A stretch of 64,000 nucleotides of DNA from the human T2T-CHM13v2.0 reference genome, Homo sapiens. The notes beneath the pieces are model-generated. The model was not told the DNA's origin, ran no database searches, and saw only the letters and a list, made by a program, of their open reading frames with translations. Position 1 is the first letter of the stretch. Each line of letters begins with the position of its first letter. Below, in pieces: positions 3,961 to 52,010 of this stretch. Location of the stretch: NCBI RefSeq assembly GCF_009914755.1, contig NC_060938.1; one strand, 5' to 3'. A program made the position numbers and the translations under genes.

Positions 3961-3964
3961 ACTC

Positions 3965-14972: not shown

Positions 14973-15146
14973 TTTTTATGAGCAATATTGACATTTTATA
15001 ATAATACTGATTTCCTAAAAACCCAACCTATGGTAAGCCACTTCCCAAATTCTCCACTGATTCTTTTCTCTTAGTATTGACACTACTGTGTAGTCCTCAC
15101 TCACAATGAGTATTGGTGGTCTATGTAACTATTGGAATATTGAAGA
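14973..15146 (+). repeat. Donor copy of the 174-bp direct duplication (copy at 21133-21306)
   Basis: Offset 6160; 4 mismatches counted by eye. Confidence 0.95.
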
Positions 15147-15564
15147 AATAAAGTATGTTTTCTGAGGTAACATTAAAATAGCTACTGTGGCTTCTGTCCT
15201 GCTCTCTCATGGATCCCCATCTCTAGAGAAAGCCAGTTGTAGTATTGTGAAAACATCCAACTGGCTGAAAGATAGATCCATATGGCAGTAACTAATGTCC
15301 ATTGACAACAGCCAGCATCAACTCACGAGCCATTGTGTAGTGAGCCATCTTGGAAGTGATTCCTCTAGTCCATTCAAACCTTCATATGACTGTAGTCTGC
15401 ACTGATATCTTCACTACAACCTCACAAAAAAACCTGTGGGAGAACCACCCAGATAAGTTGTCTGGAATTCTTGTCCCAGGGAAACTACATAATGAGAAAA
15501 GAGTATTATTTGAAGCACCTAATTTTGGGAGTGATTATTTATGTAGCCCTAGATAACTAATACA
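15030..15564 (+). mobile_element. MLT1F-like MaLR solo LTR
   Basis: acagccagcatcaact...gtgagccatcttggaagtg...ttttgggagtgattatttatgtagc...taactaataca. Confidence 0.75.
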
Positions 15565-17289: not shown

Positions 17290-18375
17290 ATAATGAAACA
17301 GAAAAATATAAATTTCAATACAAATAAAAATTTTGCAGATGATAAGGTTAACAACTCAAAAACTCAAAACTCAACTTAAAAACAGAGACAAATATATATT
17401 ATTAAATACTTTGAGGTAAATAGTTTTGGGGTAACTGGATAGCCATTTGGAAAAAGATTAAATTAGATCTGTGTCTTTCACCATACATAAGAATAAATTC
17501 CAAATTCATTAGATATGTAAGTGTTTAAACATTTATTTGTACAGGTATCAGAAGAAAACATGGGTGAATGTCTATTTAACGGTGACCCAAATTCAAAGAT
17601 TGTGAGAAAAATTGATAAATCTTAAGACGTAATTTTTTTAAATGTGTGACAAAACAAACAAATCACCACACAAACAAAGGCAGAACACATCTGATAAGCT
17701 GAGAAGAAATATCATGCAAATAAAAAGATAAGAAGAACTTGAAATTCAGAGACTCAAAGGCTAATATCATTACTGAAAAATCAATAAAAAAGCTAATATC
17801 ATTAGTATATAAATATATATATAAATTCTCTTAAAACTGAGGAGCAAATGATCAAAAGCATAGAAGAAAATAAGTAAAGTACATGAAAATACAACTCAAT
17901 AAAAGTACATACATGACCAATAACATGAAAATATTTTCAAACTCAGTCATTATTAGAGAAATACATATTAAAAGAAAACCATTGAAATATTTTTTCTTAC
18001 CTACAAAATAGTGAATATTTTAAAATATGACAATACTTTTATTGAGAAAATAAGCTATTTCACACATTGCTTCGGGGAATTCAAAATGGTACAACTTTTC
18101 TGAAGGGGAATTTGGCAATAGCTGAGAAATCCTTAGATGAACTTACTTCTGATATAAGCAATTCCACTTCTAGGAATCTACTATGCTGATACATCTTCAA
18201 CAATATGAAAATAAATGTGATCAAAGTTATTCATTGTAGCATTTTTTTGAATTTCAAAAAACTGTAAATAAGTCCCCATATATTGGATACTGTTTTAATA
18301 AATTATGATACATCCACACAATGGGTTACTATGCAGCTATGAAAAAGAATGAAGAAGATCTCTGAACTGAGAAAG
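17290..18375 (+). mobile_element. Old L1M (L1MC/ME-like) 3' region
   Basis: aactggatagccatttggaaaaag...aattccacttctaggaatcta...tactatgcagctatgaaaaagaatga. Confidence 0.75.
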
Positions 18376-18414
18376 CTGGGACCCATAAGTTAATGCCTTG
18401 TCAAGGACTTTTTA

Positions 18415-18748
<334 letters not shown>

Positions 18749-19003: not shown

Positions 19004-19479
19004 TAGGATATAATATATTTCCAGACAAATAAAAATATTTGAAAAACTTCTAGAGGATATACTCAAAGAAGAATGTATAGTAAGGACAAAACAAGCTATG
19101 ACATATAAGAATGAATGCTGAGCAAACATTAATGGTAACAATCTTAGTAAATAAAAATAAATTTTGGAGGTATAAAACAAGCCAGAACACAATTCTGGTT
19201 TGCTTTACAAAGGACTTCATAGTCAATATTTTTTCCTAACTTTGTAGCCCTAGTCATGACCTAGCATGTAATCCCATCCATTTGAAATATTGTTTTGATA
19301 GCCTCTTTGTTTTTCTTCCTTCCTTTCCTTAGTAATTCACCTCTAAACTATGTGTAGCAATAATTTAGGCCCTGTTTCATGTTCATCTTATCTTTTTTTT
19401 CATGAATCCATTTGCTTTAAGGTCGCAAAGTATTCTTTGGTTTGACTTTTCTACTCAAAAATTTGAATAAAATATTATT

Positions 19480-21132
<1,653 letters not shown>

Positions 21133-21306
21133 TTTTTAGGAGCAATATTGACATTTTGTAATAATACTGATTTCCTAAAAACCCAACTTATGGTAAGCCT
21201 CTTCCCAAATTCTCCACTGATTCTTTTCTCTTAGTATTGACACTACTGTGTAGTCCTCACTCACAATGAGTATTGGTGGTCTATGTAACTATTGGAATAT
21301 TGAAGA
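21133..21306 (+). repeat. Templated direct copy of 14973-15146
   Basis: agcaatattgacatttt...gaatattgaaga is near-identical to the donor. Confidence 0.95.
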
Positions 21307-21631
21307 TATATAATAAATACATACATTTAATATAATTTATATTATAATTACATATATTATAATTACATATAAATATATGTAATTATTATAATATATGTAA
21401 TTATAATAATTACATATATTATAATTATATGTAATTATTATAATTACATATATTATATAAATATAATATATGTATATTATATTATAATATATTATACATA
21501 TTATATATACATATATGTATATATACATATACATATTATATAAATAATATATGTATATTATAGTAATATAAATATAATATAAATATAAACATATATTATA
21601 TTATATACATATATAATAAATACATACATTT
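21306..21631. repeat. AT-rich low-complexity block bounded by 23-bp direct repeats
   Basis: atatataataaatacatacattt at 21306-21328 and 21609-21631. Confidence 0.9.
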
Positions 21632-21930
21632 TTTCTGAGTATTGCTTTTGCATCTTCCCATGTATTTTGAAGTTTTGTGTTTTCAATAATATTTTATTCA
21701 AATTTTTGAGTAGAAAAGTCAAACCAAAGAATACTTTGCGACCTTAAAGCAAATGGATTCATGAAAAAAAAGATAAGATGAACATGAAACAGGGCCTAAA
21801 TTATTGCTACACATAGTTTAGAGGTGAATTACTAAGGAAAGGAAGGAAGAAAAACAAAGAGGCTATCAAAATAATATTTCAAATGGATGGGATTACATGC
21901 TAGGTCATGACTAGGGCTACAAAGGTAGGA
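21620..21930 (-). repeat. Templated inverted copy of 19234-19544
   Basis: Reverse complement of the donor, same length (311 bp). Confidence 0.95.
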
Positions 21931-21968
21931 TAGCCCTACAAAGGTAGCCCTACAAAGGTAGGGCTACA

Positions 21969-22241
21969 AGTCCGGTGTTGGAGGGCAGGAAGCATCCAGC
22001 TCCAGAGAAAGATGTAAGCTGGGAGGCTAGGCCTGTCTAGGCTTTTCCCATTTTTCTGCATGCTTTATATTCGCTGGCAGCTGATTAGATGATGCCCACC
22101 CAGATTAAGAGTGGGTCTGCCTTTCCCAGCCCACTGACTCAAATGTTAATCTCCTTTGGTAACACCCTCACAGACACACCCAGGATCAATACTTTGCATC
22201 CTACAATCCAATCAAGTTAACACTCAGTATTAACTATCACA
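21969..22241 (-). mobile_element. MLT2A1 LTR 5' part, displaced 5' LTR of the HERV-L at 34512-38099
   Basis: Reverse complement aligns to 37677-37949 (~20 mismatches in ~273 bp); outer flank reads gtagg versus gcagg after the 3' LTR. Confidence 0.9.
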
Positions 22242-22349
22242 CCTACTCTGTTCCTGTAACTTATAACAAAATATGTTGAAAAAAGCAAATCCGTATTTAT
22301 TAATTAGCCTGTCTGCTATCTGGGAGGAGAAAAGAAAAACATAGCACAA

Positions 22350-22540
22350 TTGGAATAAGATGTGTTAATTCTATTTATGCCTTTCATTACTTTGGAATCT
22401 TGGGCAACTGACATAGGCAGTAAGACAGTTCTGTAATTACACAAAACAAAATAGAATAGCACTAACAACACGCACTTTATGAATTACTGTGAAGATTAAT
22501 TTGTGGTGTAGATTTTTAAAATCTAGAACATGATAGAATG
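22350..22540 (+). mobile_element. MIR fragment
   Basis: cttgggcaactgac...ctgtgaagattaa, weak MIR core similarity. Confidence 0.4.
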
Positions 22541-22734
22541 ACTAACCAAACAGGCATATGGTAATAGTTTCACAGATTTAAATGTAGACTAAAATTCTAC
22601 TAGCAAACAAAATAAAATGCTTATCTCATTTTATAAGAATTGAAAGATTACATATGAAATAAATTTCTACAAATATTATCATATCTGTTTTACTGTATAT
22701 TAATATATAGAGAAAAATAGTAAAGGGTAGATGG

Positions 22735-25700
22735 GTTATTATTAGTTTGTTGCTATTGAGTTGTAGTTTTTCATACGTTTATGCTATAACCCATTCTCAG
22801 TTATATGGTTTGCAAATATTTTCTCTCATTGCATAGGTGCATAGGTTGCGTTTTCACTTTATTTCCTTTGCTGTTTAGATTTTTTGCTTGATGAAACCTC
22901 ATGTGTCTATTTTCTCTTTTGTTACCTGTGCTTTTGGTATTATATCCAAAACATCTTTGTCCAGAACAATGTCAGGAAGATTTTCCCCTACGTTTTTTTC
23001 TTGTAATTTTACTGTTTGAAGTTTTATGTTTAATTCTTTCATTCCTTTATTTCTTTCAAGTTTTGTTTTTTTGGTATATGGTGTAAAATAAGAGTTCCAT
23101 TTTATTCTTTTGCTTGTTGACATCCAGTTTTCCCAACATCCTGTACTGAAGACTCTCTCTTCTTCACTGTATAATCTTGATACCTTTTCAAAGATTAGTT
23201 GATCATATATGTGTGGGTTTATATCTGGGCTCTGTATTCTGTTATATCAGTCCACATGTCTGCTTTTATGCCAATATCATACTGTTTTGATTACTGTAAC
23301 ATTGTAATATATTTTGAAATCAGAAAGTGTGATGCCTCCAGGATTTTTCTCCTTTCTCAAGACTGAATTGGCTATCCAGTTCTTTCCTGGCTCTATACGA
23401 ATTTTAGGGCTTTTCTTTCTATTACTACAAAAATACTTTTGGGATTTTGATAGAAATTGCATTGAATGTATAGATGACTTTGGTAATATAGACTTTGAAA
23501 CAATATTAATTCTTGCAATTCATAAATTTCTTTCCATTTATCTTTGTCTCCTTTAATTTCCTCCATTAATGATTTATAATATCCAATGTACGAGTCTTTC
23601 ACTCTTTTGATTAAGTTTATTCTTAAGTATTTTGGTTTTTGCTGTTATTACTCTTGTGAATGGGATTGTTTCTTAATTTTCTTTTTGGATAGTTCTTTGT
23701 GTATAGGAACAGCAATGATTTTTTGTTGATTTTGTATTCTGTAACTTTACTGAATTCACTTATTAGTTATACATATTTTCTGGTGGCCCTTAGGGTTTCG
23801 TACATATATGATTATGTTATCTACAAAGACAGATAATTTTGCTTCTTTTTTTCTGATTTGGATGCTTTTTTTTTTTCTAGTCTAATTGCTCTGGCTAGGA
23901 CTTCCAGTACTGTGCTGAATAAAATTGGTATGAATGGGCATCCTTGCCTTGTAATAAATCTTAAAAGGAAAGCTTTCAGTTTCCTCCCATTGATTATGAA
24001 GTTAGCTTCCTACCTTTTTCTATATGGTCTTTATTGTGTTGAAATAATTTCCTATTCTACCTATATCATTGAGCATTTTACATGAATGTATATTTAGTTT
24101 TGTAAAATATATTTTCTATATCTTTATAGTTGATCATAGTTACATTTCATTCTGCTGATGTAATATTTCACATTAATTGATTTGCATAAGTTGAACCATC
24201 TTTGCATCCCAGCGATAAATTCTGTTTGGTCATGATATGAAATCTATTTAATGTGCTGTTGAATTCAGTTTGTTAGTATTTTACTGATAATTTTTGCATC
24301 TATGTTCATGAGTAACATTAATGAACAGTTTTCTTTTCTTGTGATATATTTATCTGGTTTGGTATCAGGTGATGGTAGCCTCTTGACACGAATTTAGAAG
24401 TGTTACCTCTTCTATTTTTTGGAATATTTTAAGAAAAATTAGTATTAATTATTCATTGAATGTTTGGGAGAATTCACTTATGAAACCATTTGGTCCTAAG
24501 CTTCCCAAGCTTTTTTCTTTGTTGAGAGGTTTTTAAAATTATGAATTCAATCTTCTCATTTGTTATTCCTATGTTAGGACTTTCTATTCCTTTTTGAATC
24601 AGTTTGTATGTTTCTAAGATGTCATCCACTTCTTCTAGGTTATCCAATTATTCACCTATGTTTGATCATAAGATAGTCTCGTATGATCCTTTTTATTTCT
24701 GAGGCATCTGTTGTAATGTCCCCTTTTTCATTTATGATTTTGTGTGCTTGTAGCTTCTCTTTTTTCTTACTTAGTCTAGCAAGGGTTTCTTTATCTTCTA
24801 AATAAAACCAACTCTCAGTTTAGTTGATTTTTAATTTTTAATATTATTTTTATGATGTATTTGTAGTATTAAGTTAGGTGGTTTATTTTATATATTTTTC
24901 TTTTTTTAATGTAGGCAATTACTACTACAACTTCTCTTTTAGTACTGTTTTTGCAACATTTTGTTTGTTTTGGTATTGTGTTTTCATTTTCTTTTGTCTT
25001 TAGGTATTTAAAAATTTTCCTTTAATTTCCCCTTTAATCCAATGGTGTGTTTAATCCAAAAGTGTGTTGCAAATTTTCATGTATTTGTGAATTTTCTTAT
25101 TTTTTTGTTATTGATTTCTAATTTAATTCCATTGGGTTGGAAAAGATTCTTAGAATGATATCCATCTTTTAAAATTTGCTAAGACTTGTTTTGTAATCTA
25201 ACTTGTGGTCTGTCTTGGAGAATGCTGTACATTTGAAAATGTATGCTCTTCTGCTATTGGGTGAAAGTTCTGTATATGTTGGCTAGGTCAATTTAGTTGA
25301 TAGTATTGTTAAAGTCAGCTATTTTTTAAAATTAATTATCTTGTGAGTTTTGTATCTATTATTATAAGAGGAGTATTAAAGTCTCCTACTATTATTGTAT
25401 AATAGCAATTTCTCCCTTTGGATCTGCCAGTGTTTGCTTTACATATTTCGGTGTTCTCATGTTAGATATGTATATATTGATACTTGTTATATGTTTCTAT
25501 TTAATTGACCCTTTTATCATTTATACAATAAACTTCTTTGGCCATAAAAACAATTTTACTTAAATTCTATTTTTTCTGATTTAAGCATAACCATCTCTGA
25601 TTTCTTTTTGTTAAAATTTGCATGAAATATCTTTTTATAGTCCTTCACTTTTATACTCCTTCACTTTTAGCCTATTAGTGTCCTTAATTCTAAAGTGAAT

Positions 25701-26085
25701 ATCCTGTAGATAGATACCAGATCTTGGTTTATCCACTCAGCTACTCTATTGCTTTATATGGGGAATTTAATTCATTTACACTTAAAGTAATTGCTAATGT
25801 GTGAGAAGTTACTATTGCCATTGTGTTTACTATTTCTGTTTTGTGGGTGATTTGATCCTCTCTTGTTGTTTTCCTTTGTTACTTGATGATTTTTGTAGGG
25901 ATTTGTTTTGACTGTTTTCTCTTTATATTTTGTTTCTCTATTCTATATTTTTCTTTGCAGTTACCTCAGCATTTGCATAAAATATCTTGTATTTGTAAAC
26001 ATTTATGCTGATTTCATAACAACTTAACTTCAATTGTACACAACAATACTATACTTTCTCACCCCCTAACTTTGTTGAGTTTTTA
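22735..26085 (-). mobile_element. L1M (L1MA/MB-like) ORF2 region, decayed
   Basis: Minus-strand ORF fragments translate to L1 ORF2-like peptides (GGITLSDFKIYYNVTVIKTV; VKLQEKNVGENL). Confidence 0.88.
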
Positions 26086-26088
26086 GTC

Positions 26089-26090
<2 letters not shown>

Positions 26091-26123
<33 letters not shown>

Positions 26124-26399
26124 ATAGAGTCTGGCTGTTGCCCAGGCTGGAGTTCAGTGGCTGATCTCAGCTCACTGCAACTTCTGCCTTCCGAGTTCAA
26201 GTGATTCTCCTGCCTCAGCCTCCCAAGTAGCTGGGATTACAGGCATGCACCACCATGCCCAGCTAATTTTTGTACTTTTAGTAGAGACAGGGCTTTACCA
26301 TATTGGCCAAGCTGGTTTTGAACTCCTGACCTTGGGTGACCCACCCACCTCGGCCTCCCAAACTGCTGGGATTACAGGCATGAGCCACCATGCCTGGCC
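26091..26399 (-). mobile_element. AluS with a long T tract
   Basis: ~T32, then Alu body to cctggcc; cagttt on both flanks. Confidence 0.93.
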
Positions 26400-26459
26400 C
26401 AGTTTGCTTTTTTTAACTTTATCTTTAACATGCAAGGACATTGCAATACCAGAAAAAAA

Positions 26460-26720
26460 TCTAGGATGGGGATTGACTTCCAAGATGGCTTCTTCACACA
26501 CGCGTATGGAGACTTGATGATCTCTTTTTTTCATGGCTTTCTCTGCCTGGGCCTCTTCATGTGTACTGGACTTCTCAAAGCATGGCTTTTTACTCTTTTT
26601 ATATAACAATTGGCTTTCGAATATCTAAAAGTGTAAAAATACAGGCCAGTTAAGGGCTTCACCAAGAAGTCATGCAGCATCAAGTCCACTTTATTTTATG
26701 AAGCAAGACTATTATAACTG
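26460..26720 (-). mobile_element. Old MLT1-like LTR fragment
   Basis: ttccaagatggcttcttcac...cttctcaaagcatggc. Confidence 0.4.
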
Positions 26721-26839
26721 TCATTATATATATTATAATGGCCATTAATCTGGAAGAAATCACAGTTTTCAAAGGTATATAAATATCATAATAATTACAT
26801 TTAAACAAACATCTCTGATTAGTTGTGATAAACTAGAGG

Positions 26840-26990
26840 TAAAAGAAAGATAAAAAGGAAGAAAAAAGAAGGAAGGAAGGAAGGGGAAGGGAAGGAAGGA
26901 AGGGGAAGGGAAGGAAGGAAGGGGAAGGGAAGGAAGGGAGGAAGGGAGGGAGGGAGGGAAAGAGAGAGTGAGGGAAGAAAGAAAGAAGGT
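26840..26990. repeat. Purine-rich (GGAA/GGGAA)n simple repeat
   Basis: Direct inspection. Confidence 0.9.
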
Positions 26991-26999
26991 CAACTAAGA

Positions 27000-27450
27000 A
27001 GATATTGCAATATCTTCCAGTTGTGATATGATACAGGTCTAGATCAGGGCAACAGCCACAGAAATGAAAAAGTGTGGGTATGGGAACTCTTGTGCAAGGA
27101 AACAGATGCTTTTGATAGTTGAATTTGATGAAATTGGAAAAGCTACATATAACTTAAATTGCACTTTATAATCCAGATGAGATGATTAAAATAATGCACA
27201 GTTGATATAGGGAGCACTTGGAAACAGACAAGTTTGTTGGATATGAAGTACAATTTGAACAGAGTATGTTGCTGTCAAATTGTGCAATGGAAAACATAGG
27301 CCCAAAGCTTCTAGCTAGGGACTTTGAGATGAAAGTCATCAGTAAAGAGGTGACGGTTGAAAAGTCATGAGACTAGATAAAATCACACTTTGATTGAGTA
27401 ATGAGAAAAAAAGACAAGGCCTGAGGGTAAAACAAGGACCAATGTAACTT
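27000..27450 (-). mobile_element. L2 fragment
   Basis: Purine-rich L2-like motifs (agtcatcagtaaagaggtgacggttgaa...gactagataaaatcac). Confidence 0.5.
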
Positions 27451-27733
27451 TTTCAGCCTTCCCTTTGGATGGAGGCTTTGAAGTTCTTTAGGTGGCACTA
27501 ATGTTGATTAATTTGAACATCAATCAGTTCTTAGGTCCACAAAGTGTTTTAGTTCTTAATATACATGCCAGAGATATTTTCGTGTAAAATTATTTCTATT
27601 TTTTTCAAATAATATTGCAAACACTTAAATTTCAAGTTATTATTTCTGAATCAAAGATCTTGTTTAGCTTTAAAGGATTGATATTGGAACATAATTATTT
27701 TGAATTTTTAAATAACTATAGTATTACATTTAA

Positions 27734-28124
<391 letters not shown>

Positions 28125-28214
28125 AGTCCCAGACTTTGTATATTGTGATACATAAAAACCTAGAAAAAATTATCAAACTTCCTCATGAAAGTCATAAGTA
28201 ATAAACTTAAAAAA

Positions 28215-28627
28215 ATTAATTTTTTAGAACAGTTTTAGGTTGACTGCAAAATTAGAGAAAAGTACAGTGATTTCCTATGTACTCCGTGCCCCTCCTCCCC
28301 ACATGTTTAGCCTCCCCCATTATCAACATCCCCCACCAGTGATACATTCATCAAGCAGAGTCTACAATTTACATCAGGTTTCACTCTAGGTTTGTACATT
28401 CCTATGGCTTTAGACAAATGTGTAATCACGTATATCCACCAAGATAGTATCATACAGCATATTTTTACTGCCCTAAAACTCCTCCATGCTCCTGCTGCTT
28501 ATTCTTTTCTCCTCCCTAACTCCTGGAAATCAATTTTTTTTCCTGTCTCTATAGTTTTGCTTTCGCCAATAAGTAGTCTTTTCAGATTGGCTTCTTTCAT
28601 TTAGTAATACGCATTAAGATTTCCCCA

Positions 28628-28666
<39 letters not shown>

Positions 28667-29650
28667 CATAATAGCTTATTTCTTCTTAGCACTGAATAAT
28701 ACACTGTCTGGATGTCTGACCATTTATTTATCCATTCACCTACTGAAAAACATTTCGGTTGCTCCCATGTTTTGGTAATTATGAATAAACATGCTGTAAA
28801 CATCTTTGGGAAGGTTTTTGTGTAGACATTATTTCAACTGCTATGGGTAAATAGCAAGGAATGAGATTGCTGAACAGTTTAGTTAACGGCATGTTTAGTT
28901 TTGTAAGAAACTGCTAACTGTCTTCCAAAGTGATTGTACCATTTCACATTCCTACAAGCAATGAATGAGAGCTCCTATTGTTCCACGTCCTAATCAGCAT
29001 TTGGTATTGTCAGTGTTCTGGATTTTGTTTATTTTAACAGTATTTTGTAGGTATCTCATTGTTTTAATTTACTTAGTCCTAATAACATGATGTGGAGCTT
29101 TTTCATATGCATATTTGCATCTGTATGTCTTCTTTGGTGAAGTGCCTGTTAAGATCTTTGACTAATTTTTTAATTGGGTTGTTTTTCATTATTGAATTTT
29201 AAGAGTTCTTTGTATATTTTGAATCACACTTCTTTCCCAGATATGTCTTTTGAAAATATTTGCTCCCAGTCTGCAATTTATTTTTTTCATTCCTTGAACA
29301 GTATCTTTTGCAGAGCCAAAATGTTTAATGTTCATGAATTCTACCTTATTAATTCTTTCTTTAAAGAATCATGCCTTTGATGTCATATCTAAAAAGTCAT
29401 TGCCAAACAGAAGGTCATCTAATTTTCTCCCATATTATCTAACAAACGCTTATAGTTTCATATTTTACATTTAGATCTGTAATCCATTTTGAGTTATTTT
29501 TTTGAAGGGTATAAATCTGTCTAGATTTACTTATTTTTGCATGTGAAAGTCCAGTTGTTCTAACACCATTTGTTTAAAATACTATTTTTCCCCATTCATT
29601 TCCTTCACTGTTTTATCAAAGATCAGCTGACTATAAATATGTGGGGTAAT
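28215..29650 (-). mobile_element. L1MC/MD-like 3' end
   Basis: tttttagaacagttttaggtt... 3' UTR; minus-strand ORF MFTACLFIITKTWEQPKC resembles the ORF2 C-terminus. Confidence 0.85.
28630..28665. repeat. (TG)n microsatellite
   Basis: About 18 units. Confidence 0.95.
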
Positions 29651-30101
29651 AAGCTTTTGAGGACTTTTGTATGAAAGTATGTCAATGTTTAACTCTGTTT
29701 CATTAATCAATACAACTTCTTTTATTTCTCATTTCCATTATAGTCCTTGTTCATCTCAGTTTTAAAATAGACTTTTTTAGAGTGTCTCCTTTAAATATGT
29801 TTTCCCAAGCAAGCATTATTCTAATGTCCCCAGAAGTCTATTGTTATTATTATCAGTTTTGAGCAAAACAATTGTGGTGAAAATTATCCAGCATCATGTG
29901 AAGTGAAACTAAAGCAGGTGCATTAAGGAATTGGCGTTCAATTTTTTTCTTTTATCGTCCATATGTGTTTTAAGAATTTTGATTATTTTTAGATTAATGC
30001 CTGTTTCATGTCAAGTATTTTGCCAATAGAAAGAGAATTGTGTATACAATCTGTAACCAAGTTGTCTGCATTTCCGAAGTCTGAATACAGACAATGTAAA
30101 G

Positions 30102-30104
<3 letters not shown>

Positions 30105-30142
<38 letters not shown>
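30105..30142. repeat. (AT)n microsatellite
   Basis: About 19 units. Confidence 0.95.
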
Positions 30143-30144
<2 letters not shown>

Positions 30145-30278
30145 TTAAAAATAGATTCTAAAATTTTCTTAGAGTAGCAGGTTTGCATATTAACATTGTG
30201 TAATTTGCATTTCACATCAAGAATTTGGCTTTAGAAAATATGAAAAGGTATTAGTGAAGTTACTATGGCTGATACATT

Positions 30279-30965
30279 TGTTAGTTAGGCATTAGCAGCC
30301 AGGCAGGGGTGAAAGAAAAGAGCAGAAGGGCTGTCACTAAGACAGGCTCTAGCCCACTTAAATTCAGCCTGCACACTGCCCTAACTTGACCCTAAGGATG
30401 GAGTCTGTGGTAACGTCTGTGGTTAGCACATCCTGGAAAAAATATACTAGGCCACAGATAATCTCTTAAAGTGGTGAATATCCAGACCATCTAGGCTGCA
30501 ATCCCAGGTAACCTCATCCTAATTATGCAGTCATTATAATAAAATTTACCTGTGTTTTTGCCCTCCCCCTACCAAAATGGGCTTTTCTTAATGGATTGTG
30601 GGTAAGAATATATGTGGTTTAACTTCAGTTATATAGCCAAAAACTGGCAAGCAAATGACATCATCCTGTCACTCAAATACAGCCCAAGCCTTAACTCCTC
30701 CCCACAAACCGGATGAATGCACCCTAAGCTCCATAAAGAGGGACTGATTTCATGTCACAGGAACCAGCCCACTCTCCCTCTGAGGGTGTATGACTGTACT
30801 TCAGTAAACTGTGCTTTGAGTTTGCATTTTGGCGTTAGTTTGCAATTCTTTGCTCACTATCACAGGAACTGAGATTGCTGCTCCAGAGCTCTGGCCTTGT
30901 TTCTCTCCAGCCTTGCTGATCTCCTCGGTTGGAGAATTCATCCCAATGCAGAATCCTTGGTAATA
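30279..30965 (+). mobile_element. Solo LTR (ERVL MER54/MER73-like)
   Basis: Starts tgttag; cataaa TATA-like and agtaaa polyA-like signals; acatt repeated on both flanks. Confidence 0.7.
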
Positions 30966-31268
30966 CATTGACAAAAAATAACAACATACAGCTATTCAAA
31001 TGATACAGAAAAGAATATTTATTGAGGTAAAAATATCAAGCTTAGATTATTAATATAAGTATGGTTACTAAGTAGTATTTCTGGTTAAAGATGAGCAATT
31101 AAATATATTGAATGCTCCTTCCAAAAATATATTTGAATATGCTGAATAAATGTAAAAATCAAAAGAAATTAATCACAGGAATGGGAAGCAGAATCAATGC
31201 CACTAACCAGGAAAGAGAATCTTCTTGCAGAAAATTAGCTGTTCAAACACCTTAAAGAAAAACACCCG

Positions 31269-31590
<322 letters not shown>

Positions 31591-31825
31591 AACACCCAGG
31601 CTGTAGGCCCCTGCTCTTCCTTTCCGGGCCCAAACTACGAAGCCAGGGACTCTGCGATCAAAACATTCCTAGACATTCCCAGGTGAGCTAAGGAAGTACT
31701 GTGTTCTCCATTTTCCCATATTGTTTAAATTCTAAATCTGATTAGTCAAAGATTGCAAAGCATAAGATACAATGCAGACAGCTAGAAAGAAAGGGCACAC
31801 TACTAATAGATTAATCATTGAACTC

Positions 31826-31997
31826 TTTTTTTTTAATGTAAATTTTTTTTATTATACTTTAAGTTTTAGGGTACATGTGCACAACGTGCAGGTTAGTTAC
31901 ATATGTATACATGTGCCATGTTGGTGTGCTGCACCCATCAACTCATTTAACATTAGGTATATCTCTTAATGCTATCCCTCCCCCCTCCCCCCACCCC
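31826..31997 (-). mobile_element. Young L1PA 3' terminal fragment (~170 bp)
   Basis: ttattatactttaagttttagggtacatgtgcacaacgtgcaggttagttac...ccctcccccctcccccc. Confidence 0.9.
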
Positions 31998-32619
31998 TGT
32001 GATAAAATCATAAAGCAGAAAACAGGAAAAAAGCTTTAAAGTAATTATAATTAGTAATTAATATTTTCAGAAACTTTTGAGAAACTATCATACCCAAGAA
32101 ATGGAAAATCTCAGAAGAAAAATTATAACAGCTTTTGAAAACTGAAATATACTTGTTGAAATTAAGACAGTAACACTTTTTTACAAATGGTCTGAATATT
32201 CTAATTAAAGATTAAATTAAGAAATTATTTGAGGATGCAGAATAAAAAACAGAGATGGGAATATGAAATAACTATTTATAAATATGAAATACAGAGCCTA
32301 AAATTCCTACATACATTCTTCTAATTCCTGTTATGAGTTCTTGAAAGAAAAAAATACTAAAGATAGAGAACAGAAAGTAAAGTAATTTAAGACGAAAATC
32401 ACTGTGTGCTACAAAAAGACCAAATTAACACATTAAATATAACACAGAAAAATTGATCAATAATTCTCATTTTGGCATATCCACCTGAGATTTCTGAACT
32501 CCAAGTTAAAGAAAAAATACACAGAGCATGGGCATAATTTCAGAAGCACTTATGTAGATTAAAAAATTACTTAAAAATACAAAAAGGAGTAACAGCCTGA
32601 CCTGTGAATAGTGAAATTA

Positions 32620-33907
32620 TATTTTTATTTTTTAATTTATTAAAATATCAAGTATTTATAATAAAAAGTGCCCATTATAAAGTTACAAGTTCATTAATGT
32701 AAACATCTATTTAACTTCTAACCGAAAGAAGATACGTACTTGCATTTCACTCAAAAATTTACTTATCCCTATTCTCAATCAGCCCATCTCCCATCTCTGA
32801 TATCAGGAAACCAATGACATGCTTTTTATATCCAGTGGTTGGTTTGCCTGTTCTAGAATTCCATATAAATTTATTATATAATATATACTGTTTTATGTCT
32901 GGATTCTTTCACTCAGTATACTGGTTTTGAAGTACCACAGTGCAGCAGCATATATCAATAGTTTAATTAAATATGTATATTACAATTCACTGAATGATTA
33001 TACCATGACTTCGTCATCCATTCACCTGTTGGTGTGTATTTGGGTTCTTTCAATTTGCGCTCCTATAAATTAATATGTTTACTAGAAAAATTATTTTCCA
33101 AGACATTTTCTGGACAGATATTTTAATTTGTCTTTGATATTAATTTCTCCTGTAAGTGGAATTGCTAAGTCATATGGTAAGTGCATATTTAATTGTATAA
33201 GTAATTATCAATTTTTAAAAAATCTATAAGTCCAGGTAGCTCGATATCCTTGCCTACTTTCTATCATCAGTCCTTTAAATTTTAGGAAATCTAGTGATTG
33301 TGCAGAGAAATCTAATTACAATTTTAATTGGCATTTGCCTAAACAATAATAAAGTTAATAATTTTTATATGTGTAACAGCTGTTTTTATATTCTCTTTTA
33401 AGTATATGGCCAAACCTTTGTTGTATTTTTAATTGAGTCATGAGTCTTTTTCTTATTGGGTTGTAATATTGCTGTATATATTAGAATTAAAATGATTTGA
33501 GATATATATATTTCACTATATGAAATTTAATAATATATGAATGAATATGAAATATGAAATTAATATAAACTATAAAATTAATATGAAATATATAATGGAT
33601 ATAAAATATATACTATAGTATATGAGCATAAGAGAAATAAAATATATACTGAAGATTTTTTTTATCCTGAGTGCCCTTCAAATAAAAACTTTATTCTAAT
33701 TTGATTAAGTTCAACTTAACCTATTTTTTTATGGTTAATGTTTTTGGTGACCTGTTGATAAAAATCTTGGCTTATCAAAAGTTACACATCTTCTTTCTTA
33801 AGGGACTTATATTGTTGACTTCATCTTTAGGTCTATAGTTTACTTTACATTGCTTTTTATCTACAGTGCGAACATGAGTTGAAACTTATGTTTCCTGTAT
33901 AACTATA
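32620..33907 (-). mobile_element. Old L1M(E-like) 3' part, continuation of the 19480-21132 element across the inversion
   Basis: Reverse complement begins in the ORF2 stretch leading to tatagacctaaa and runs through the 3' UTR. Confidence 0.75.
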
Positions 33908-33910
33908 CAC

Positions 33911-34511
33911 ATATATATATTATATATATCCATATATATTATATATATCCATATATAATATATATATCTATATATTATATATATCCATATATATTATATA
34001 TATCCTATATATTATATATCTATATATTATATATATCTATATATTATATATATCCATATATATTATATATCTATATATTATATATATCCATATATGTTAT
34101 ATATCTATATATTATATATATCCATACATATTATATATCTATATATATTATATATATCCATACATATTATATATATCTATATATATTATATATATCCATA
34201 CATATTATATATATCTATATATATTATATATATCCATATATATTATATATATCTATATATATTATATATATCCATATATATTATATATATCTATATATAT
34301 TATATATCATATATTATATATCCATATATTATATATCATATATTATATATCCATATATTATATATATCTATATATATTATATATATCCATATATATTATA
34401 TGGATATATATATATATCCATATATATATATGGATATATATATCCATATATAATATATATCCATATATATAATATATATCCATATATAAAATAAACTAGT
34501 ACGATATATAT
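33911..34511. repeat. AT-rich minisatellite (~15-19 bp TATATATCCATATATAT-type units) with perfect palindromes
   Basis: Direct inspection; 36-bp perfect palindrome at 34408-34443. Confidence 0.92.
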
Positions 34512-34560
34512 ACATCCTACTAGTTCTGTCCCTCTACGGAACCCTGACTAATACAGATTT

Positions 34561-34578
34561 TGGTACCAGGAGTGGTTC
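34561..34578 (+). promoter_or_regulatory. Primer-binding site (tRNA-Leu type) of HERV-L
   Basis: tggtaccaggagtggttc just downstream of the LTR end. Confidence 0.75.
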
Positions 34579-35478
34579 TAGAGGAACAGAATATTAAGGA
34601 TGGAGTTCTTTCATTGGTTTTGGGGTTTCTGGAGTTGTCTGCTTAATATGATTAGACCCAAAAATGCTAAGGACTCTACTTCTAATAGTATGGAAAACAC
34701 TGATATTCCTTGATGTGGACTGTTTAGAGAGTTATGCATAATAAACACATTTGACACTCCTGACTCACTGCTTGTGAGAGGCAAGGAGTTTAGTGACTCT
34801 ATGCATAATACCTCTGACCATATGTGGAGAACCAAGGAACATAATGAAGCTGGTTGGTTGCTCCTAAGTTCAGTGGACAAAGTGATAAAAGAAAATGATT
34901 AACTCGGGGATTCTAACTCCCGGCTTCAGAAGCAGGTATTGAACCCCAAATCTGCTAAAATTGACCTGAGCGAGAGTCTTATCTCCTGTAAAGAAAGAGC
35001 TGAAATTGTGGAAAAAGAGACACAGGTGCTTATTGTGCAAGTGGGTGACCTGCAATGAAAGGTGCAAGCAGAGCCTTGCCTCGTGTTAATCTTTCTCCCC
35101 AAGGACAACTCTATCCTTTTACTAGGGTAACTGTGCATTGGGGAAAAGGAAATGATCAGATACTTAGGGACTACTGGACACTGGCTCTGAGCTGACGTTG
35201 ATTCCTGGGGACCCAAAACATCACTGTGGTCCTCCAGTTACAGTAGGGGCTTATGGAGGTCATGTAATTACTGAAGTTATAGCTCAGGTCCAACTAAGAG
35301 TGGGTCCCTGGACTCATCCAGTGCCAGAATGCATAATTGGCATAGACATACTTAGAAGCTGGCAGAAACCCCATATTGGCTCCCTGACTGGTAGGGTGAG
35401 GGCTGCTATGGTGGGAAAAGCCAAATGGAAGCCATTATAGCTGCCTCTACCTAGAAAAATTGTAAATCAAAAACAATA

Positions 35479-35988
35479 TTGCATCCCAGAGGGATTGCGG
35501 AGATTAGTGCCACCATCAAAGACTTGAAAGATGCTAGTCTGGTGATTCCCACCACACCACCCTTCAACTCTCCCATATGGGCTGTGCAGAAGACAGGTGG
35601 ATCTTGGAGAATGACAGTGGATTATCATAAGCTTAACCAAGTGGTGACTCCAATTGCAGCTTCAGTACCAGATGTAGTTTCATTGCTTGAGCAAATTAAC
35701 ACATCTCCTGGTACCTGGTATACAGTCAATGACTTGGCAAATGCCTGTTTCTCCATCCCTCTCCATACAGCCCACCAGAAGCAATGTGTCTTCAGCTGGC
35801 AAGGCCAGCAATATACCTTTACTATCCTACCTCAGGCGTACATCAACTCTTCAGCTTTGTGTCAAAATCTTATTCAGAGAGAACTTGATCACTTTTTGCT
35901 TCTGCAAAATATCACACTGGTCCATTACATTGATGACATTGTATTGATTGGATCCAGCCAGCAACAAGTAGCAAACACATTGGACTGA
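35479..35988 (+). pseudogene. pol: HERV-L reverse transcriptase remnant (169-codon open stretch)
   Basis: FNSPIWAVQKTGGSWRMTVDYHKLN, DLANACFSIP, YTFTILPQ and YIDD motifs. Confidence 0.92.
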
Positions 35989-36054
35989 TTGGTGAGACAA
36001 CAGCATGCCAGAGGAAAGGAAATAAATCTGACTAAAATTCTGGGAACTTCTAGC

Positions 36055-37330
36055 TTTTATAATCAAGTGGATAGGATGACTCGTTCTGTGGACACCACTC
36101 AGCCTCTTTCCTTAGCCACCCCTGTCATTGCCCAGTGGGCCTATGAACAAAGTGGCCGTGGTGTCCAGGGTGGAGGTTTTGCATGAGCTTAGCAACACGG
36201 ACTTCCACTCACCAAGGCTGACCTGGCTACAGCCACTGCTGAGTGCCCAATTTGCCAGCAGCAGAGACCAACACTAAGCCCTCAATATGACACCATTCTT
36301 CAGGGTGATCAGCCAGCTACCTAGTGGCAGGTTTATTATATTGGACCTCTTCCATCATGGAAAGGGCAGAGATTTGCCCTCAGTGGAATAGACGCTTACT
36401 CCAGATATGTGTTTGTCTATCCTGCATGCAATGCTTCTGCCAAAACTACCATCTGTGGACTCATGGAGTGCCTTATATCCACTGTCATGGTATTCCATAC
36501 AGCATTGCCTCTGACTAAGGCATTCACTTTGCAGCTAAATAAGTGCAGCAGTGGGATCATGCTCATGGAATTCACTGGTCTTACCATGTTCCCCATTATC
36601 CTGAAGCAGCTGGATTGATAGAATGGTAGAATGGCCTTTGGAAGTCACAATTACGACCCCAATTAGGTAACAATATTTTTCAGGGCTGGGGCAAAGTTCT
36701 CCAGAAGGCAGTGTATGCTCAAAATTAGCGTCCAATATATGGTACTGTTTCTCTCATATCCAAGACTTATGGGTCCAGGAATCAATGGCAAGTGGAAGTG
36801 GCACCACTCATCATCACCCCCTAGTGATCCACTGGCAATATTTTTGCTTCTGTTCCTGTGACATTACGTTCTGCTGGACTAGCGGTCTTAGTTCCAGAGG
36901 GAGGAACACTGCCACCAGGAGGAACAACAATTCCGTTAAACTGGAATTTAAGATTGCCACCTGGTTACACTTTGGGCTTCTCCTATCTTTAAGTCAACAG
37001 GCTAAGACAGGAGTTACAGTGTTGGCTGGGACAACTGATCCAGACTATGAGATGAAATCAGTCTACTAGTCCTCAATGGAGGTAAGGAAGAGGATGCATG
37101 GAACACAGGAGATTCGATAGGACATCTCTTAATATTACCATGCCCAGGAATTAAGGTCGATGGGAAACTAAAATAGCCCATTCCAGGCAGCACTACAAAT
37201 GGCCCAGACCCTTCAGGAATGAAGGTTTGGGTCACTCCACAAGGACGAAAATCATGACTTGCTGAGGTGCTTGCTAAAGGCAAAAGAAATACAGAATGGG
37301 TAGTGGAAGAAGGTAACCAATACCAGCTAT
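36055..37330 (+). pseudogene. HERV-L integrase and dUTPase remnants
   Basis: CPICQQQRP zinc-finger half, WQVYYIGP-type core start, and dUTPase-like HFGLLLSLSQQAKTGVTVLAGTTDPDY; frameshifted. Confidence 0.8.
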
Positions 37331-38434
37331 GACTATGTGACAGTTGCAGAAACGAGGACTGTAATTGTCATGATTGTTTCCTTCTTCTTTTGTTAAAAAC
37401 ATATTTGAACACTTATACACTTATACTAAGACAATATCTTCATTTTATTTCCTTTTTCCTTTATAATGAGACATAAGATTTATTGACTTCATATCAGCAT
37501 GTAAGTATTGTTAACTTTATGTAATGGCATTTGAGTTGGGAATTGGTGCATTTTTGGTTGTACGAAAGATAGTTGTATTATCTTAGGCATAATTATGAGC
37601 TTATTATTGTCTTTATTTGAAGATTATGTATGATCTCAGGAGATGTATATGTGTTCAAGTTGACAAGGGGTGAACTTGTGATGGTTAATACTGAGTGCCA
37701 ACTTGATTGGATTGAAGCATGCAAAGTATTGATCCTGAGTGTGTCTGTGAGGGTGTTATCAAAGGAGATTAACATTTGAGTCAGTGGGCTAGGAAAGGCA
37801 GACCCACTCTTAATCTGGGTGGGAGTCATCTAATCAGCTGCCAGCAAATATAAAGCAGGCAGAAAAATGGGAAAAGGCTAGACTGGCCTAGCCTCCCAGC
37901 CTACATCTTTCTCTGGAGCTGGATGCTTCCTACCCTCAAACATCACACTCCAAATTCTTCAGTTTTGGGACTCAGACTGGCTCTCATTTTTCCTCAGCTG
38001 GCAGATGGCCCATTGTGGGACCTTGTGATCATGTGAATTAATACTTAATAAACATATATATATATAATTAGCTCTGTCCCTCTAGAGGGCCCTAATACAG
38101 CAGGTATGATTGGAACACTTCACATTGTATAGCGTTTTGTACCCTGTGACATATTATAGATTGATAAATGGATGCCTACATATACCTAGAGACAAATAGA
38201 TATATAGATACATAAAGGTATACATACATGTGACATCTATCTATCTATATGTATATATATTTACATATATATATATGTACTACAATTCATTCATTCATTC
38301 ATTCTTTTCTGCTTCCTTTTGTGATCGGAAAACTCTTACCAAACTTTTAGAAAATCATCAAATTCCTAAACTTCTTAGAAACCATAATTTACTCATCCCC
38401 AAAGTAAACTCTCAATTATTTAAAACATTAATGA

Positions 38435-42814: not shown

Positions 42815-43170
42815 TTTTTCTTTTCTTTTTTTAAATTTTTTTTAAATTATACTTTAAGTTCTAGGGTACATGTGCACAACGTGCAGGTTTGTCACATATG
42901 TACACATGTGCCATGTTGGTGAGCTGCACCCATTAACTTGTCATTTAACATTAGGTATATCTCCTAATGCTATCCCTCCCCCCTCCCCCGACCCCATGAC
43001 AGGCCCCGGAGTGTGATGTTCCCCTTCCTGTGTCCAAGTGTTCTCATTGTTCAATTCCCACCTATGAGTGAGAACATACAGTGTTTGGTTTTTCGTCCTT
43101 GCTATAGTTTGCTGAGAATGATGGTTTCCAGCTTCATCCATGTCCCTACAAAGGACATGAACTCATCCTT
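42815..43170 (-). mobile_element. L1PA 3' end (~350 bp)
   Basis: Primate L1 3' UTR: ttatactttaagttctagggtacatg...aaggacatgaactcatcc. Confidence 0.92.
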
Positions 43171-50680: not shown

Positions 50681-52010
50681 GAATCACATTTATTAATTTG
50701 TATATGTTGAACCAACCTTGCATCCCAGATAAACAACCTACTCGATCATAATAGATTAGCTTCGTGCCACTGGATTTGGTCTGCCAGTATTTTTTTGAGA
50801 ATTTTTTGCACTTATGTTCATCAGAGATATTGGCCTGAAGTTTTCTTTTTTGTTGTGTCTCTGGTAGGTTTGGGTATTAGGATGATGCTGGTCTCATATA
50901 GTGAGTTAGAGAGGAGCCCCTCCTCTTTTTTGGGAATAGTTTCAGTAGGATTGGTACTAGATCTTCATATGTCTGGTAGAATTAGGCTATGAATCCATCT
51001 GGTGTAGGGCTGCTTCTGGTTGGTAGGCTTTTTATTAGTGATTAAATTTTCACACTCATTATTGGTCTGTTCAGGGTTTCACTTTCTTCCTGGTTCAAAC
51101 TTGGGAGGTTGTATGTCTCTAGGAATTTTTCCATTTCCTCTGGGTTTTCTAGTTTGTGTGCATAGTGATATTCATAATGTCTCTGTTTTTTTTTTTTATG
51201 TCTGTGAGATCAATAGTAATGTTCTCTTTGTCATTTCTGATTATGCTTATTTGTAGCTTGTCTCATTTTTAATTTATTAGTCTAGCTAGTGATCTATCAA
51301 TCTTATTTATTCTTTCAAAAAACCATCTTTCATTTTCTTGGGCTTTTGTATCCTTTTTCTCATCTCAATTTCATTCATTTCAGCTCTCATTTTGGTTATT
51401 TCTTTTCTTTTGCTGGCTTTCAGGTCGGTTTGCTTGTCTTTTTCTAGTTTCTCTTACTTTAAAAGATATTTGAATTTGGCTTAATTATTATGGACAAAAC
51501 TTTGCAAAGAATAATTTAGTAAATGAGTTACCAATTCAGAGCAACTCCCACTTCATTGGACTACAGTGAATATTCTTATTAATGGGAGTAGAAGACGGTT
51601 TCTTTTTCCGATATAATCACTTCTTAACTTCTTTCTCAAGTAAAAAAGTGCATTTACTTTAGAGATTATGCTATAAGTTGAAATTTCCTTTGAGAATTCA
51701 TCTTATACCATGAAATGAACATGCAAATAAAATTTAGATAAAATATGTTTTTAAGTAATCTGTGTTTGAAAATAAACATTTTATACAGACAAATATTCCT
51801 TCTTTTGGTTATATTTTGTTGAGAATCACTGAATAAGAATTCTTAAATTACGTGGGGTGAGTGACATTTGTACTAAAGATGTTTTCCTTTTCTAGTTGAT
51901 CTAGGGTTCTTTTAATTTATTTTCCCCTACTTTATTGAGATATACTTGAAAAATAAGAATTACGTATATTTAAGGTATACAATATGGTGTTTTGATATAC
52001 ATATAAATTA

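What the first reader, a model, noticed from the sequence alone, without database searches (positions are those of the whole stretch)
21969..33910. Cryptic ~12-kb inversion shown by two split retroelements
Seen in sequence: the HERV-L at 34512-38099 (+) keeps only the last ~45 bp of its 5' LTR, while an MLT2A1 5' part lies 12 kb upstream on the minus strand (21969-22241). The 5 bp outside that piece read gtagg on the minus strand (22242-22246); the 5 bp after the 3' LTR read gcagg (38100-38104). The two LTRs share variants such as ctttctctggagctgg and aaaaatgggaaaag. Independently, an old L1M stops at caatgtggaaag (21132, +), and an L1M on the minus strand resumes at ~33907, a few tens of bp further along ORF2. 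Established: ERV-L elements make 5-bp TSDs. Inference: flipping 21969-33910 restores both elements, with ~100 bp of LTR and ~40 bp of L1 lost.
Basis: partly seen in the sequence, partly recalled or inferred. Interest (0 to 1): 0.85.

Follow-up and report, generated by a model that had tools for sequence, protein, structure and literature searches.

The report
Old 12-kb inversion with copied-in filler
A roughly 12-kb stretch of a human chromosome 14 gene desert was flipped long ago, cutting an ancient retrovirus copy in two and leaving short copies of nearby DNA at one seam; it is a clear but ordinary example of how small inversions form.

Summary
The LTR piece at 21969-22241 (-) is the missing front of the 5' LTR of the HERV-L at 34484-38099 (+). 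It is 93.6% identical to that provirus's 3' LTR. The 3' LTR is also its best match in the whole genome among the 40 copies scored, and its sister in a tree of 31 copies. The two pieces do not overlap, and the 5-bp flanks match 4 of 5.

The "junk" at the left seam (21133-21968) is not junk. It holds a direct copy of 14973-15150 (97.2%) and an inverted copy of 19234-19544 (98.7%). Between and beside them lie an AT-rich array and a 14-bp mini-repeat. These copies differ from their sources by 1.8%, against 6.4% for the LTR pair, so the flip is about 3.5 times younger than the provirus. This points to repair or replication with template switching, not recombination between repeats.

The L1 evidence is weaker than claimed. 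The two L1 pieces fit in orientation and position, with a 28-52 bp gap. However, a third L1 piece at 17409 fits the broken end even more closely, and I could not tell which one is the true partner. No ape genomes could be searched, so the ancestral state is untested. This is a new member of a known kind, of modest interest.

The parts
14973..15150 (+). Source of the direct templated copy found at the left seam
   Evidence: 97.2% identical (5 mismatches in 178) to 21133-21310. In the whole genome this sequence matched only these two places (2 candidates, 2 scored).
17409..18415 (+). L1 3' part 'U', a rival partner for the broken L1 end; probably a separate 5'-truncated L1
   Evidence: Profile positions 293-1211 at 17418-18353, E 2.6e-30. 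It aligns with ORF2p residues 931-1239 of chain 8uw3_A. There is no L1 signal upstream of it.
19234..19560 (+). Source of the inverted templated copy; lies inside or just before L1 piece A
   Evidence: 19234-19544 is 98.7% identical (4 mismatches in 311) to 21930-21620 in reverse complement. With gaps allowed the match runs on to 19560 (96.6% over 328).
19587..21132 (+). L1 piece 'A' (ORF2, with an Alu at 20031-20353), ending at the left breakpoint
   Evidence: ORF2p residues 716-925 aligned at E 4.8e-07. Profile positions 2-276 at 20882-21123, E 7.3e-37. Genomic L1 hits cover 19586-19829.
21133..21310 (+). Filler 1: direct copy of 14973-15150
21306..21631 (.). AT-rich array at the left seam, bracketed by a perfect 23-base direct repeat
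   Evidence: Tandem Repeats Finder rows with periods of 15-81 bases. The 23-mer occurs only at 21306 and 21609 in the window.
21603..21930 (-). Filler 2: inverted copy of 19234-19560
21931..21969 (.). 14-base unit repeated 2.8 times, with small palindromes, derived from the end of filler 2
   Evidence: sequence read.
21969..22241 (-). Displaced front part (positions 1 to about 266-273) of the HERV-L 5' LTR
22242..22246 (-). 5' target-site duplication, gtagg
22247..32876 (-). Body of the inverted segment (old L1 pieces, Alus, unique DNA)
   Evidence: The flank 22242-22800 is unique in the genome. An L1 lies at 22732-24828 on the - strand.
32877..33907 (-). L1 piece 'B' (ORF2 3' part), starting at the right breakpoint
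   Evidence: Profile positions 329-1296 at 33892-32877, E 8.8e-42. It gave no match to solved ORF2p structures.
33911..34488 (.). 19-base AT-rich microsatellite (31 copies) at the right seam
34484..34556 (+). Remnant of the 5' LTR (3' LTR positions 355/378 to 423)
34557..37676 (+). HERV-L internal region, only about 3.1 kb; reverse transcriptase at 35584-36045
   Evidence: RVT_1, E 3.4e-15, residues 343-496 of the frame that starts at 34558.
37677..38099 (+). Complete 3' LTR (423 bp, TG...CA)
38100..38104 (+). 3' target-site duplication, gcagg

Best explanation
A HERV-L provirus integrated on the + strand with a 5-bp target duplication. Much later, one rearrangement broke the DNA at two places: inside its 5' LTR, and about 12 kb upstream inside an old L1. 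The segment between the breaks (now 21969-33907) was rejoined upside down.

About 81-100 bp of LTR and 28-52 bp of L1 were lost. At the left seam the repair or replication machinery copied two nearby stretches before rejoining. One lies 6.0 kb upstream and was copied in direct orientation. The other lies 1.6 kb upstream and was copied in inverted orientation. This is the signature of serial template switching (FoSTeS/MMBIR-type, or synthesis-dependent end joining). AT-rich arrays then grew at both seams.

What is shown: the inverted state of the LTR front part, the two templated copies, and their younger age. What is inferred: that it was one event, that the whole 12 kb flipped as one block, that L1 pieces A and B were one element, and the replication-type mechanism.
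For: LTR pair:
- The LTR piece and the 3' LTR are 93.6% identical over 266 bp.
- Genome-wide, the piece's best match other than itself is this 3' LTR (94%, 404 bits). The next best is 91%, 380 bits (40 scored of 2910 candidates).
- In a set of 31 sequences (the two pieces plus 29 of the copies most similar to the 3' LTR) the two are reciprocal best matches and sisters, with FastTree support 0.968. They share 8 non-majority sites, 3 of them seen in 0 of the 29 others.
- The LTR pieces are complementary: positions 1-266 and 355/378-423.
- The flanks match 4 of 5. In the family control, 10 of 29 related copies had both ends reached, and 9 of those 10 have 4 or more of 5 flank bases matching.
- The upstream flank is unique in the genome, so this is not a segmental duplication.

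Left seam:
- 21133-21310 is a direct copy of 14973-15150 (5 mismatches in 178). 21620-21930 is an inverted copy of 19234-19544 (4 mismatches in 311).
- The two copies are compatible in age (Fisher p 0.30).
- Together they differ from their sources by 9/489 = 1.8%, against 17/266 = 6.4% for the LTR pair (Fisher p 0.0026).
- No inverted repeat of 90% identity or more, other than the LTR pair and the copied-in filler, lies at the two breakpoints.

L1:
- A ends at profile position 276-285. B starts at 314-329 on the opposite strand, exactly where a simple inversion predicts it.
Against: - No outgroup genome could be searched, so the un-inverted state has never been seen.
- Identity alone does not single out the LTR pair. 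Other copies in the set are on average 91.0% identical to each other and reach 95.8% (406 pairs).
- L1 piece U starts within -1 to 16 bp of A's end, closer than B does. There is no L1 signal upstream of U.
- B and U are equally decayed: 63.4% and 63.3% identical to the commonest base of the 25 copies. A looks less decayed: 75.7%, or 71.8% against 12 copies not chosen for likeness to A. A and B therefore cannot be shown to be one copy.
- Microhomology at the switch points is short and uncertain in this decayed DNA.
- That the two copies and the flip arose in one event is an inference from their position and similar age.
Confidence: 0.7

Rival explanations
1. Multi-break local shuffle. The original L1 was A followed by U. 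In one complex event three neighbouring segments were re-ordered from [..A][U-block][B...LTR front] to [U-block][..A][filler][B...LTR front, inverted]. On this reading B is an unrelated 5'-truncated L1.
For: - U abuts A in L1 coordinates with almost no loss: ORF2p K928 against L931, and profile 276-285 against 284-293.
- U has no L1 sequence upstream of it.
- The event is already known to be complex, with two templated copies.
- The inverted copy stops at 19225-19234, which would be a broken end in this model.
Against: - It needs four breaks instead of two.
- It leaves unexplained why the sequence at the right seam is an L1 in the right orientation that begins only 28-52 bp past A's end. I estimate roughly 0.1% by chance. 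A chance 5' truncation of U near that point I estimate at 1-8% once other L1 pieces in the window are allowed for.
- U is no better matched to A in decay than B is.
Confidence: 0.15
2. Inverted transposition of a smaller block. Only the LTR front part and some of its flank were cut out and re-inserted upside down about 12 kb upstream. The rest of the interval, including B, never changed orientation.
For: The LTR evidence alone does not say how far the inverted block extends.
Against: - It needs a third breakpoint inside 22247-33907. I found no trace of one, but I made no systematic search for a split element there.
- It makes the A/B fit in orientation and coordinates a coincidence.
Confidence: 0.05
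3. No rearrangement. The piece at 21969-22241 is an unrelated truncated solo LTR, and the provirus lost most of its 5' LTR by deletion or microsatellite growth.
For: - The family is abundant (2910-4066 candidate matches).
- Unrelated copies can be up to 95.8% alike.
Against: - The pair are reciprocal best matches, with sister support 0.968 and 3 variants unique to the pair.
- The truncations are complementary.
- The flanks match 4 of 5.
- The LTR piece's inner end abuts young templated filler.
- The L1 pieces fit.
Confidence: 0.03
4. L1 twin priming or recombination between inverted repeats produced the opposite-strand L1 pieces.
For: Twin priming is common. In a preprint on 41 human genomes about 85% of inversions under 2 kb arise this way (10.1101/2021.12.20.472354, abstract). 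A real example lies in this window at 49378-50683.
Against: - The pieces are 12.7 kb apart.
- The inverted 5' piece lies beyond the 3' end of the other piece, not directly upstream of it, so the topology is wrong.
- The LTR split cannot be explained this way.
- There are no homologous inverted repeats at the two breakpoints.
Confidence: 0.01

Closest known systems
Human inversions formed by MMBIR/FoSTeS with templated insertions (Pettersson et al. 2020, PMC7702065; abstract and passages of sections 16, 18 and 20 read)
   Same: Breakpoints lie in non-homologous sequence. There are small deletions at the breaks and templated insertions at a junction. In that study 5 of 13 resolved inversions were assigned to replication-based repair.
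   Different: Those are megabase-scale events in living carriers, and the templated insertions quoted are 9-59 bp. Here the event is 12 kb and probably millions of years old. It has two long copies (178 and about 311-328 bp) taken from 6.0 and 1.6 kb away, both at one seam.
Interspecific ape inversions over 10 kb (Yoo et al. 2025, PMC12058530; passages of section 13 read)
   Same: The size class matches, and there would be a lineage difference if the event postdates an ape split. In that study 1,140 inversions were curated.
   Different: 63.5% of those have segmental duplications at one or both ends, which suggests recombination between repeats. This one has none.
L1 twin-priming inversions (Porubsky et al. 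preprint, 10.1101/2021.12.20.472354; abstract and section 11 passages read)
   Same: Opposite-strand L1 pieces with nearly adjacent L1 coordinates and a short deletion at the joint.
   Different: Twin priming puts the inverted piece directly 5' of the 3' piece within a single insertion, usually under 2 kb. Here the pieces are 12.7 kb apart in the wrong order, and a provirus is split as well.
Staggered-break inversions with inverted duplications at both ends (described in Drosophila; recalled, no paper read)
   Same: An inversion accompanied by an inverted duplicate of nearby sequence.
   Different: That model duplicates DNA adjacent to the breakpoint and places it at the opposite end. Here the sources lie 1.6 and 6.0 kb from the break, one copy is direct, and both copies sit at the same seam.

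Membership tests
Chromosomal inversion (two-break) | An element is split into complementary parts that lie on opposite strands at the two ends of the interval | tested here: met
   LTR positions 1-266 are on the - strand at 21976-22241. Positions 355/378-423 are on the + strand at 34484-34556. The piece is sister to the 3' LTR.
Chromosomal inversion (two-break) | The second junction also joins sequences that were neighbours before the flip | tested here: inconclusive
   L1 pieces A and B fit in strand and coordinates, with a 28-52 bp gap. Identity as one copy is not shown, and a rival partner U exists.
Chromosomal inversion (two-break) | The un-inverted ancestral state is present in an outgroup or in other haplotypes | not testable with these tools
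   No primate genomes or human pangenome are held. The held supplement text of PMC10150506 has no number beginning 3620-3625. That is only weak evidence against a polymorphic call.
Template-switching rearrangement (FoSTeS/MMBIR type) | Templated insertions copied from nearby sequence at a junction | tested here: met
   Two copies, 97.2% and 98.7% identical to sources 6.0 and 1.6 kb away. One is direct and one inverted.
Template-switching rearrangement (FoSTeS/MMBIR type) | Microhomology at each switch point | tested here: inconclusive
   A short T-run is shared at 21133. The other joints are blurred by array growth and decay.
Inversion by recombination between inverted repeats (NAHR) | Homologous repeats in inverted orientation at both breakpoints | tested here: not met
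   A self-comparison of the window at 90% identity or more finds only the LTR pair, the two filler copies and one unrelated L1 pair.
L1 twin priming | The inverted 5' piece lies directly upstream of the 3' piece inside one insertion | tested here: not met
   A lies 12.7 kb away, beyond B's 3' end. A true case at 50231-50235 serves as the contrast.
ERV-L type provirus (HERV-L with MLT2A1-like LTRs) | LTRs with TG...CA ends, 5-bp target duplication and a retroviral reverse transcriptase between the LTRs | tested here: met
LTR ends read. RVT_1 at E 3.4e-15. 9 of the 10 relatives with both ends reached show 4 or more of 5 flank bases matching.

The most novel reading that the evidence does not exclude
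The locus records one local multi-break, chromoanasynthesis-like germline event that became fixed in the human lineage. Three neighbouring segments within about 17 kb were re-ordered (U-block and A swapped, the 12-kb block inverted), and two stretches were copied in by template switching. The whole event can be dated from the divergence of its own paralogous copies.
Probability: 0.15. Interest if true: 0.45.

Novelty: new member of a known kind. Interest (0 to 1): 0.3.

Why it matters
This is a clean case in which a small, copy-neutral inversion can be recognised and roughly dated from a single genome. Split retroelements show the flip, and the copied-in filler carries its own clock.

The filler copies differ from their sources by 1.8% (95% interval 0.8-3.5%). 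Commonly quoted figures, which I recall and did not check here, are about 1.2% for human-chimpanzee divergence and about 3% for human-orangutan. The filler figure falls between them. The LTR pair's 6.4% is near the recalled human-macaque figure of about 6%.

This gives a sharp, cheap prediction. The provirus should be intact and un-inverted in monkeys or gibbons that carry it. The flip should appear somewhere between the great-ape ancestor and the human lineage.

No gene or annotated functional element lies in the window, so no functional consequence is expected.

Tried and rejected
- Pfam on read-through frames of the L1 pieces gave 0 families for 6 of 6 frames.
- Solved-structure searches placed A and U on ORF2p. 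They found nothing for B in two frames, for the stretch upstream of U, or for A's 5' part.
- Single-sequence nhmmer and Smith-Waterman with shuffles did not recognise B as L1. Only the 25-copy profile did.
- I had read by eye that the L1 at 22732-24828 continues across the provirus insertion site into 38105 onward. This was not supported. The flanks gave no shared repeat: the upstream flank is unique and the downstream one hits only simple repeats. I dropped this idea.
- Four attempts to decide whether B or U is A's partner had no power:
  - identity to 25 loci, means 51.1% against 51.3% with no correlation with A;
  - calibration on contiguous copies;
  - identity to the commonest base;
  - 3' UTR likeness, 1 weak hit for B and 0 for U among 29 loci.
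- I also looked for target-site duplications of the old L1s by eye. Nothing was convincing.


Full report
**What is there.** The window is AT-rich (34% G+C) and lies in a gene desert of chromosome 14.

A HERV-L-type provirus lies on the + strand:
- a complete 423-bp 3' LTR at 37677-38099 (TG...CA);
- an internal region of only about 3.1 kb, with a reverse-transcriptase match at 35584-36045 (RVT_1, E 3.4e-15);
- at its 5' end only the tail of an LTR. 34484-34556 aligns with LTR positions 355-423, and only 378-423 align firmly.

Twelve kb upstream, on the minus strand, 21976-22241 matches LTR positions 1-266 at 93.6% (17 mismatches, no gaps). The two 5' LTR pieces do not overlap, and about 81-100 bp between them is gone.

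**Is the upstream piece this provirus's own LTR?** The whole assembly can be searched.
- With the 273-bp piece as query, the best match other than itself is the 3' LTR of this provirus (94%, 404 bits). The next best are 91%, 380 bits (40 scored of 2910 candidates).
- With the 3' LTR as query, the 39 other full-length copies scored are 84-89% identical (40 scored of 4066 candidates).
- I aligned the first 266 bp of the two pieces with 29 of those closest copies. The two pieces are reciprocal best matches and sisters in a FastTree tree (support 0.968). They share 8 sites that differ from the commonest base of the others, and 3 of these are seen in none of the 29. They carry 6 and 9 private changes.
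- Identity alone would not be enough. The other copies are on average 91.0% alike and reach 95.8% (406 pairs).
- The 5 bases outside the piece (gtagg on the minus strand) and after the 3' LTR (gcagg) match 4 of 5. As a family control, blastn reached both ends in 10 of the 29 relatives, and 9 of those 10 have 4 or more of 5 flank bases matching, 4 of them perfectly.
- The flank next to the piece is unique in the genome, so this is not a duplicated block.

I take the inverted position of the LTR front part as shown.

**The left seam is structured.** It has four parts:
- (i) 21133-21310 is a direct copy of 14973-15150 (5 mismatches in 178). In the genome this sequence matched only these two places.
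- (ii) An AT-rich array follows. It is bracketed by a perfect 23-base direct repeat that occurs only at 21306 and 21609 in the window. This suggests the array grew by tandem duplication of the original joint.
- (iii) 21620-21930 is an inverted copy of 19234-19544 (4 mismatches in 311). With gaps allowed it runs to 19560. By eye, the L1 reading frame runs on across the right edge of the stretch near 19560, although one search found no ORF2p match there. I therefore take that copy as the source and the seam copy as derived.
- (iv) 21931-21969 is a 14-base unit repeated 2.8 times, with small palindromes, built from the last bases of copy (iii).

The right seam is a 19-base AT-rich microsatellite of 31 copies at 33911-34488.

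A self-comparison of the window at 90% identity or more finds nothing else relevant. In particular there are no inverted repeats at the two breakpoints.

**Relative age.** The two seam copies are compatible in age (Fisher p 0.30). Together they differ from their sources by 9/489 = 1.8% (95% interval 0.8-3.5%). The LTR pair differs by 17/266 = 6.4% (3.7-10.2%). The difference is significant (p 0.0026), and only 1 of the 17 LTR differences is in a CpG context. The rearrangement is therefore about 3.5 times younger than the integration.

Set against commonly quoted species divergences (recalled, not checked here), the provirus is about as old as the human-macaque split. The flip falls somewhere between the human-orangutan and human-chimpanzee splits.

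**The L1 evidence.** Pfam did not recognise the decayed L1 frames. A solved human ORF2p structure (8uw3) places the + strand piece A at residues 716-925, with the L1 reading on to about K928 at 21132.

I built a profile from 25 genomic L1 copies that match A's end and continue past it. On this profile:
- A covers positions 2-276 (20882-21123; E 7.3e-37).
- The minus-strand piece B covers 329-1296 (33892-32877; E 8.8e-42).

Allowing for the unaligned ends, 28-52 bp are missing. The strand and position are what a simple flip of 21969-33907 predicts. The same profile recovers a textbook twin-priming L1 elsewhere in the window: positions 22-432 on the + strand meet 442-1283 on the - strand at 50231-50235. 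This shows that the method finds adjacency. It also shows that the A/B layout, 12.7 kb apart and in the wrong order, is not twin priming.

A third L1 piece, U, lies on the + strand at 17409-18353.
- It begins at ORF2p L931 and profile position 293. That is within -1 to 16 bp of A's end, closer than B.
- I found no L1 signal upstream of U. The structure search found nothing. The best profile hit scored -11.4 bits, worse than the mean of 200 shuffles. Genomic L1 matches to U start at 17415-17417.
- B and U overlap in L1 coordinates and are only 48% alike, so they are different copies.
- I could not tell which one belongs to A. Their identity to the 25 copies is the same (51.1% and 51.3%), and so is their identity to the commonest base (63.4% and 63.3%).
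- A looks less decayed than either: 75.7%, or 71.8% against 12 copies that were not chosen for likeness to A. With only about 230 aligned bases for A, this is a 2-3 sigma discrepancy. It is a caution, not a refutation.

My rough estimates, not computations, are these. A chance 5' truncation of a neighbouring L1 that close to A's end has a probability of about 1%, or up to 8% if any L1 piece in the window would have caught my eye. The chance that the right seam is flanked by an L1 in the right orientation beginning within about 50 bp past A's end is about 0.1%.

I therefore prefer the simple two-break inversion, with U as a separate truncated L1 lying just upstream of A. The four-break shuffle (A+U as the original element) stays a live rival at about 15%.

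**Mechanism.** Recombination between inverted repeats is excluded by the lack of such repeats. Plain end joining does not explain two long copies of nearby DNA at one seam, one direct and one inverted, followed by a stuttered mini-repeat with palindromes.

The best fit is serial template switching during break repair or replication (FoSTeS/MMBIR type). This mechanism has been inferred for 5 of 13 sequence-resolved human inversions, from templated insertions and local complexity (PMC7702065; abstract and passages read). Microhomology at the switch points could not be established in this decayed, AT-rich DNA. That the copies and the flip arose in one event is inferred from their position and similar age.

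**What is known, and what could not be checked.**
- The complete ape genomes paper curated 1,140 interspecific inversions over 10 kb, 63.5% of them with segmental duplications at the ends (PMC12058530; section 13 passages). If this flip postdates an ape split it may be in their Supplementary Table XII.67, which I could not open.
- The held supplement text of a T2T-based survey of 41 human genomes contains no number beginning 3620-3625. No polymorphic inversion call is therefore listed there for chr14:36.20-36.26 Mb. The held text may be cut, so this is weak evidence (PMC10150506).
- The macaque inversion paper mentions only one chromosome 14 inversion in its main text, and it is tied to a different locus (PMC7605249; one passage).
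- My three literature searches found no description of this locus. That does not show that none exists.

**Verdict.** The inversion reading is well supported by the LTR and by the newly found seam copies. The L1 support is real but ambiguous. The ancestral state is untested. This is a new, well-preserved example of a known kind of event, in DNA with no annotated function.

Noticed in passing
window 49378-50683: An L1 with a twin-priming layout. The 3' piece is on the - strand (50235-49378, profile 442-1283). The inverted 5' piece is on the + strand (50231-50683, profile 22-432). They meet at 50231-50235 with about 10 bp missing.
   Followed up: partly
window 17409-18353 and 21123-21132: L1 piece U begins almost exactly where L1 piece A ends in L1 coordinates, although U lies 3.7 kb upstream of A's end on the same strand. 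This is either a coincidence or a sign of a more complex shuffle.
   Followed up: yes
window 21306 and 21609: A perfect 23-base direct repeat brackets the AT-rich array at the left seam. The array probably grew from the original joint by tandem duplication.
   Followed up: partly
window 33911-34488: A 19-base AT-rich microsatellite with 31 copies sits exactly at the right seam. The LTR family itself carries a short TA run near this point (3' LTR around 38055-38068).
   Followed up: no
window 18416-18730: A minus-strand Alu inside L1 piece U, with a clear target duplication (tgtcaagga) on both sides.
   Followed up: no
window 31824-31997 and 42819-42995: Two G-rich L1 3'-end fragments, 90.5% alike. 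They are much younger than the surrounding L1 pieces.
   Followed up: no
window 34557-37676: The provirus interior is only about 3.1 kb, with many stops in all three frames. Only the reverse transcriptase is recognised by Pfam. By eye an integrase-like and a dUTPase-like stretch follow it (motifs recalled, not tested).
   Followed up: partly
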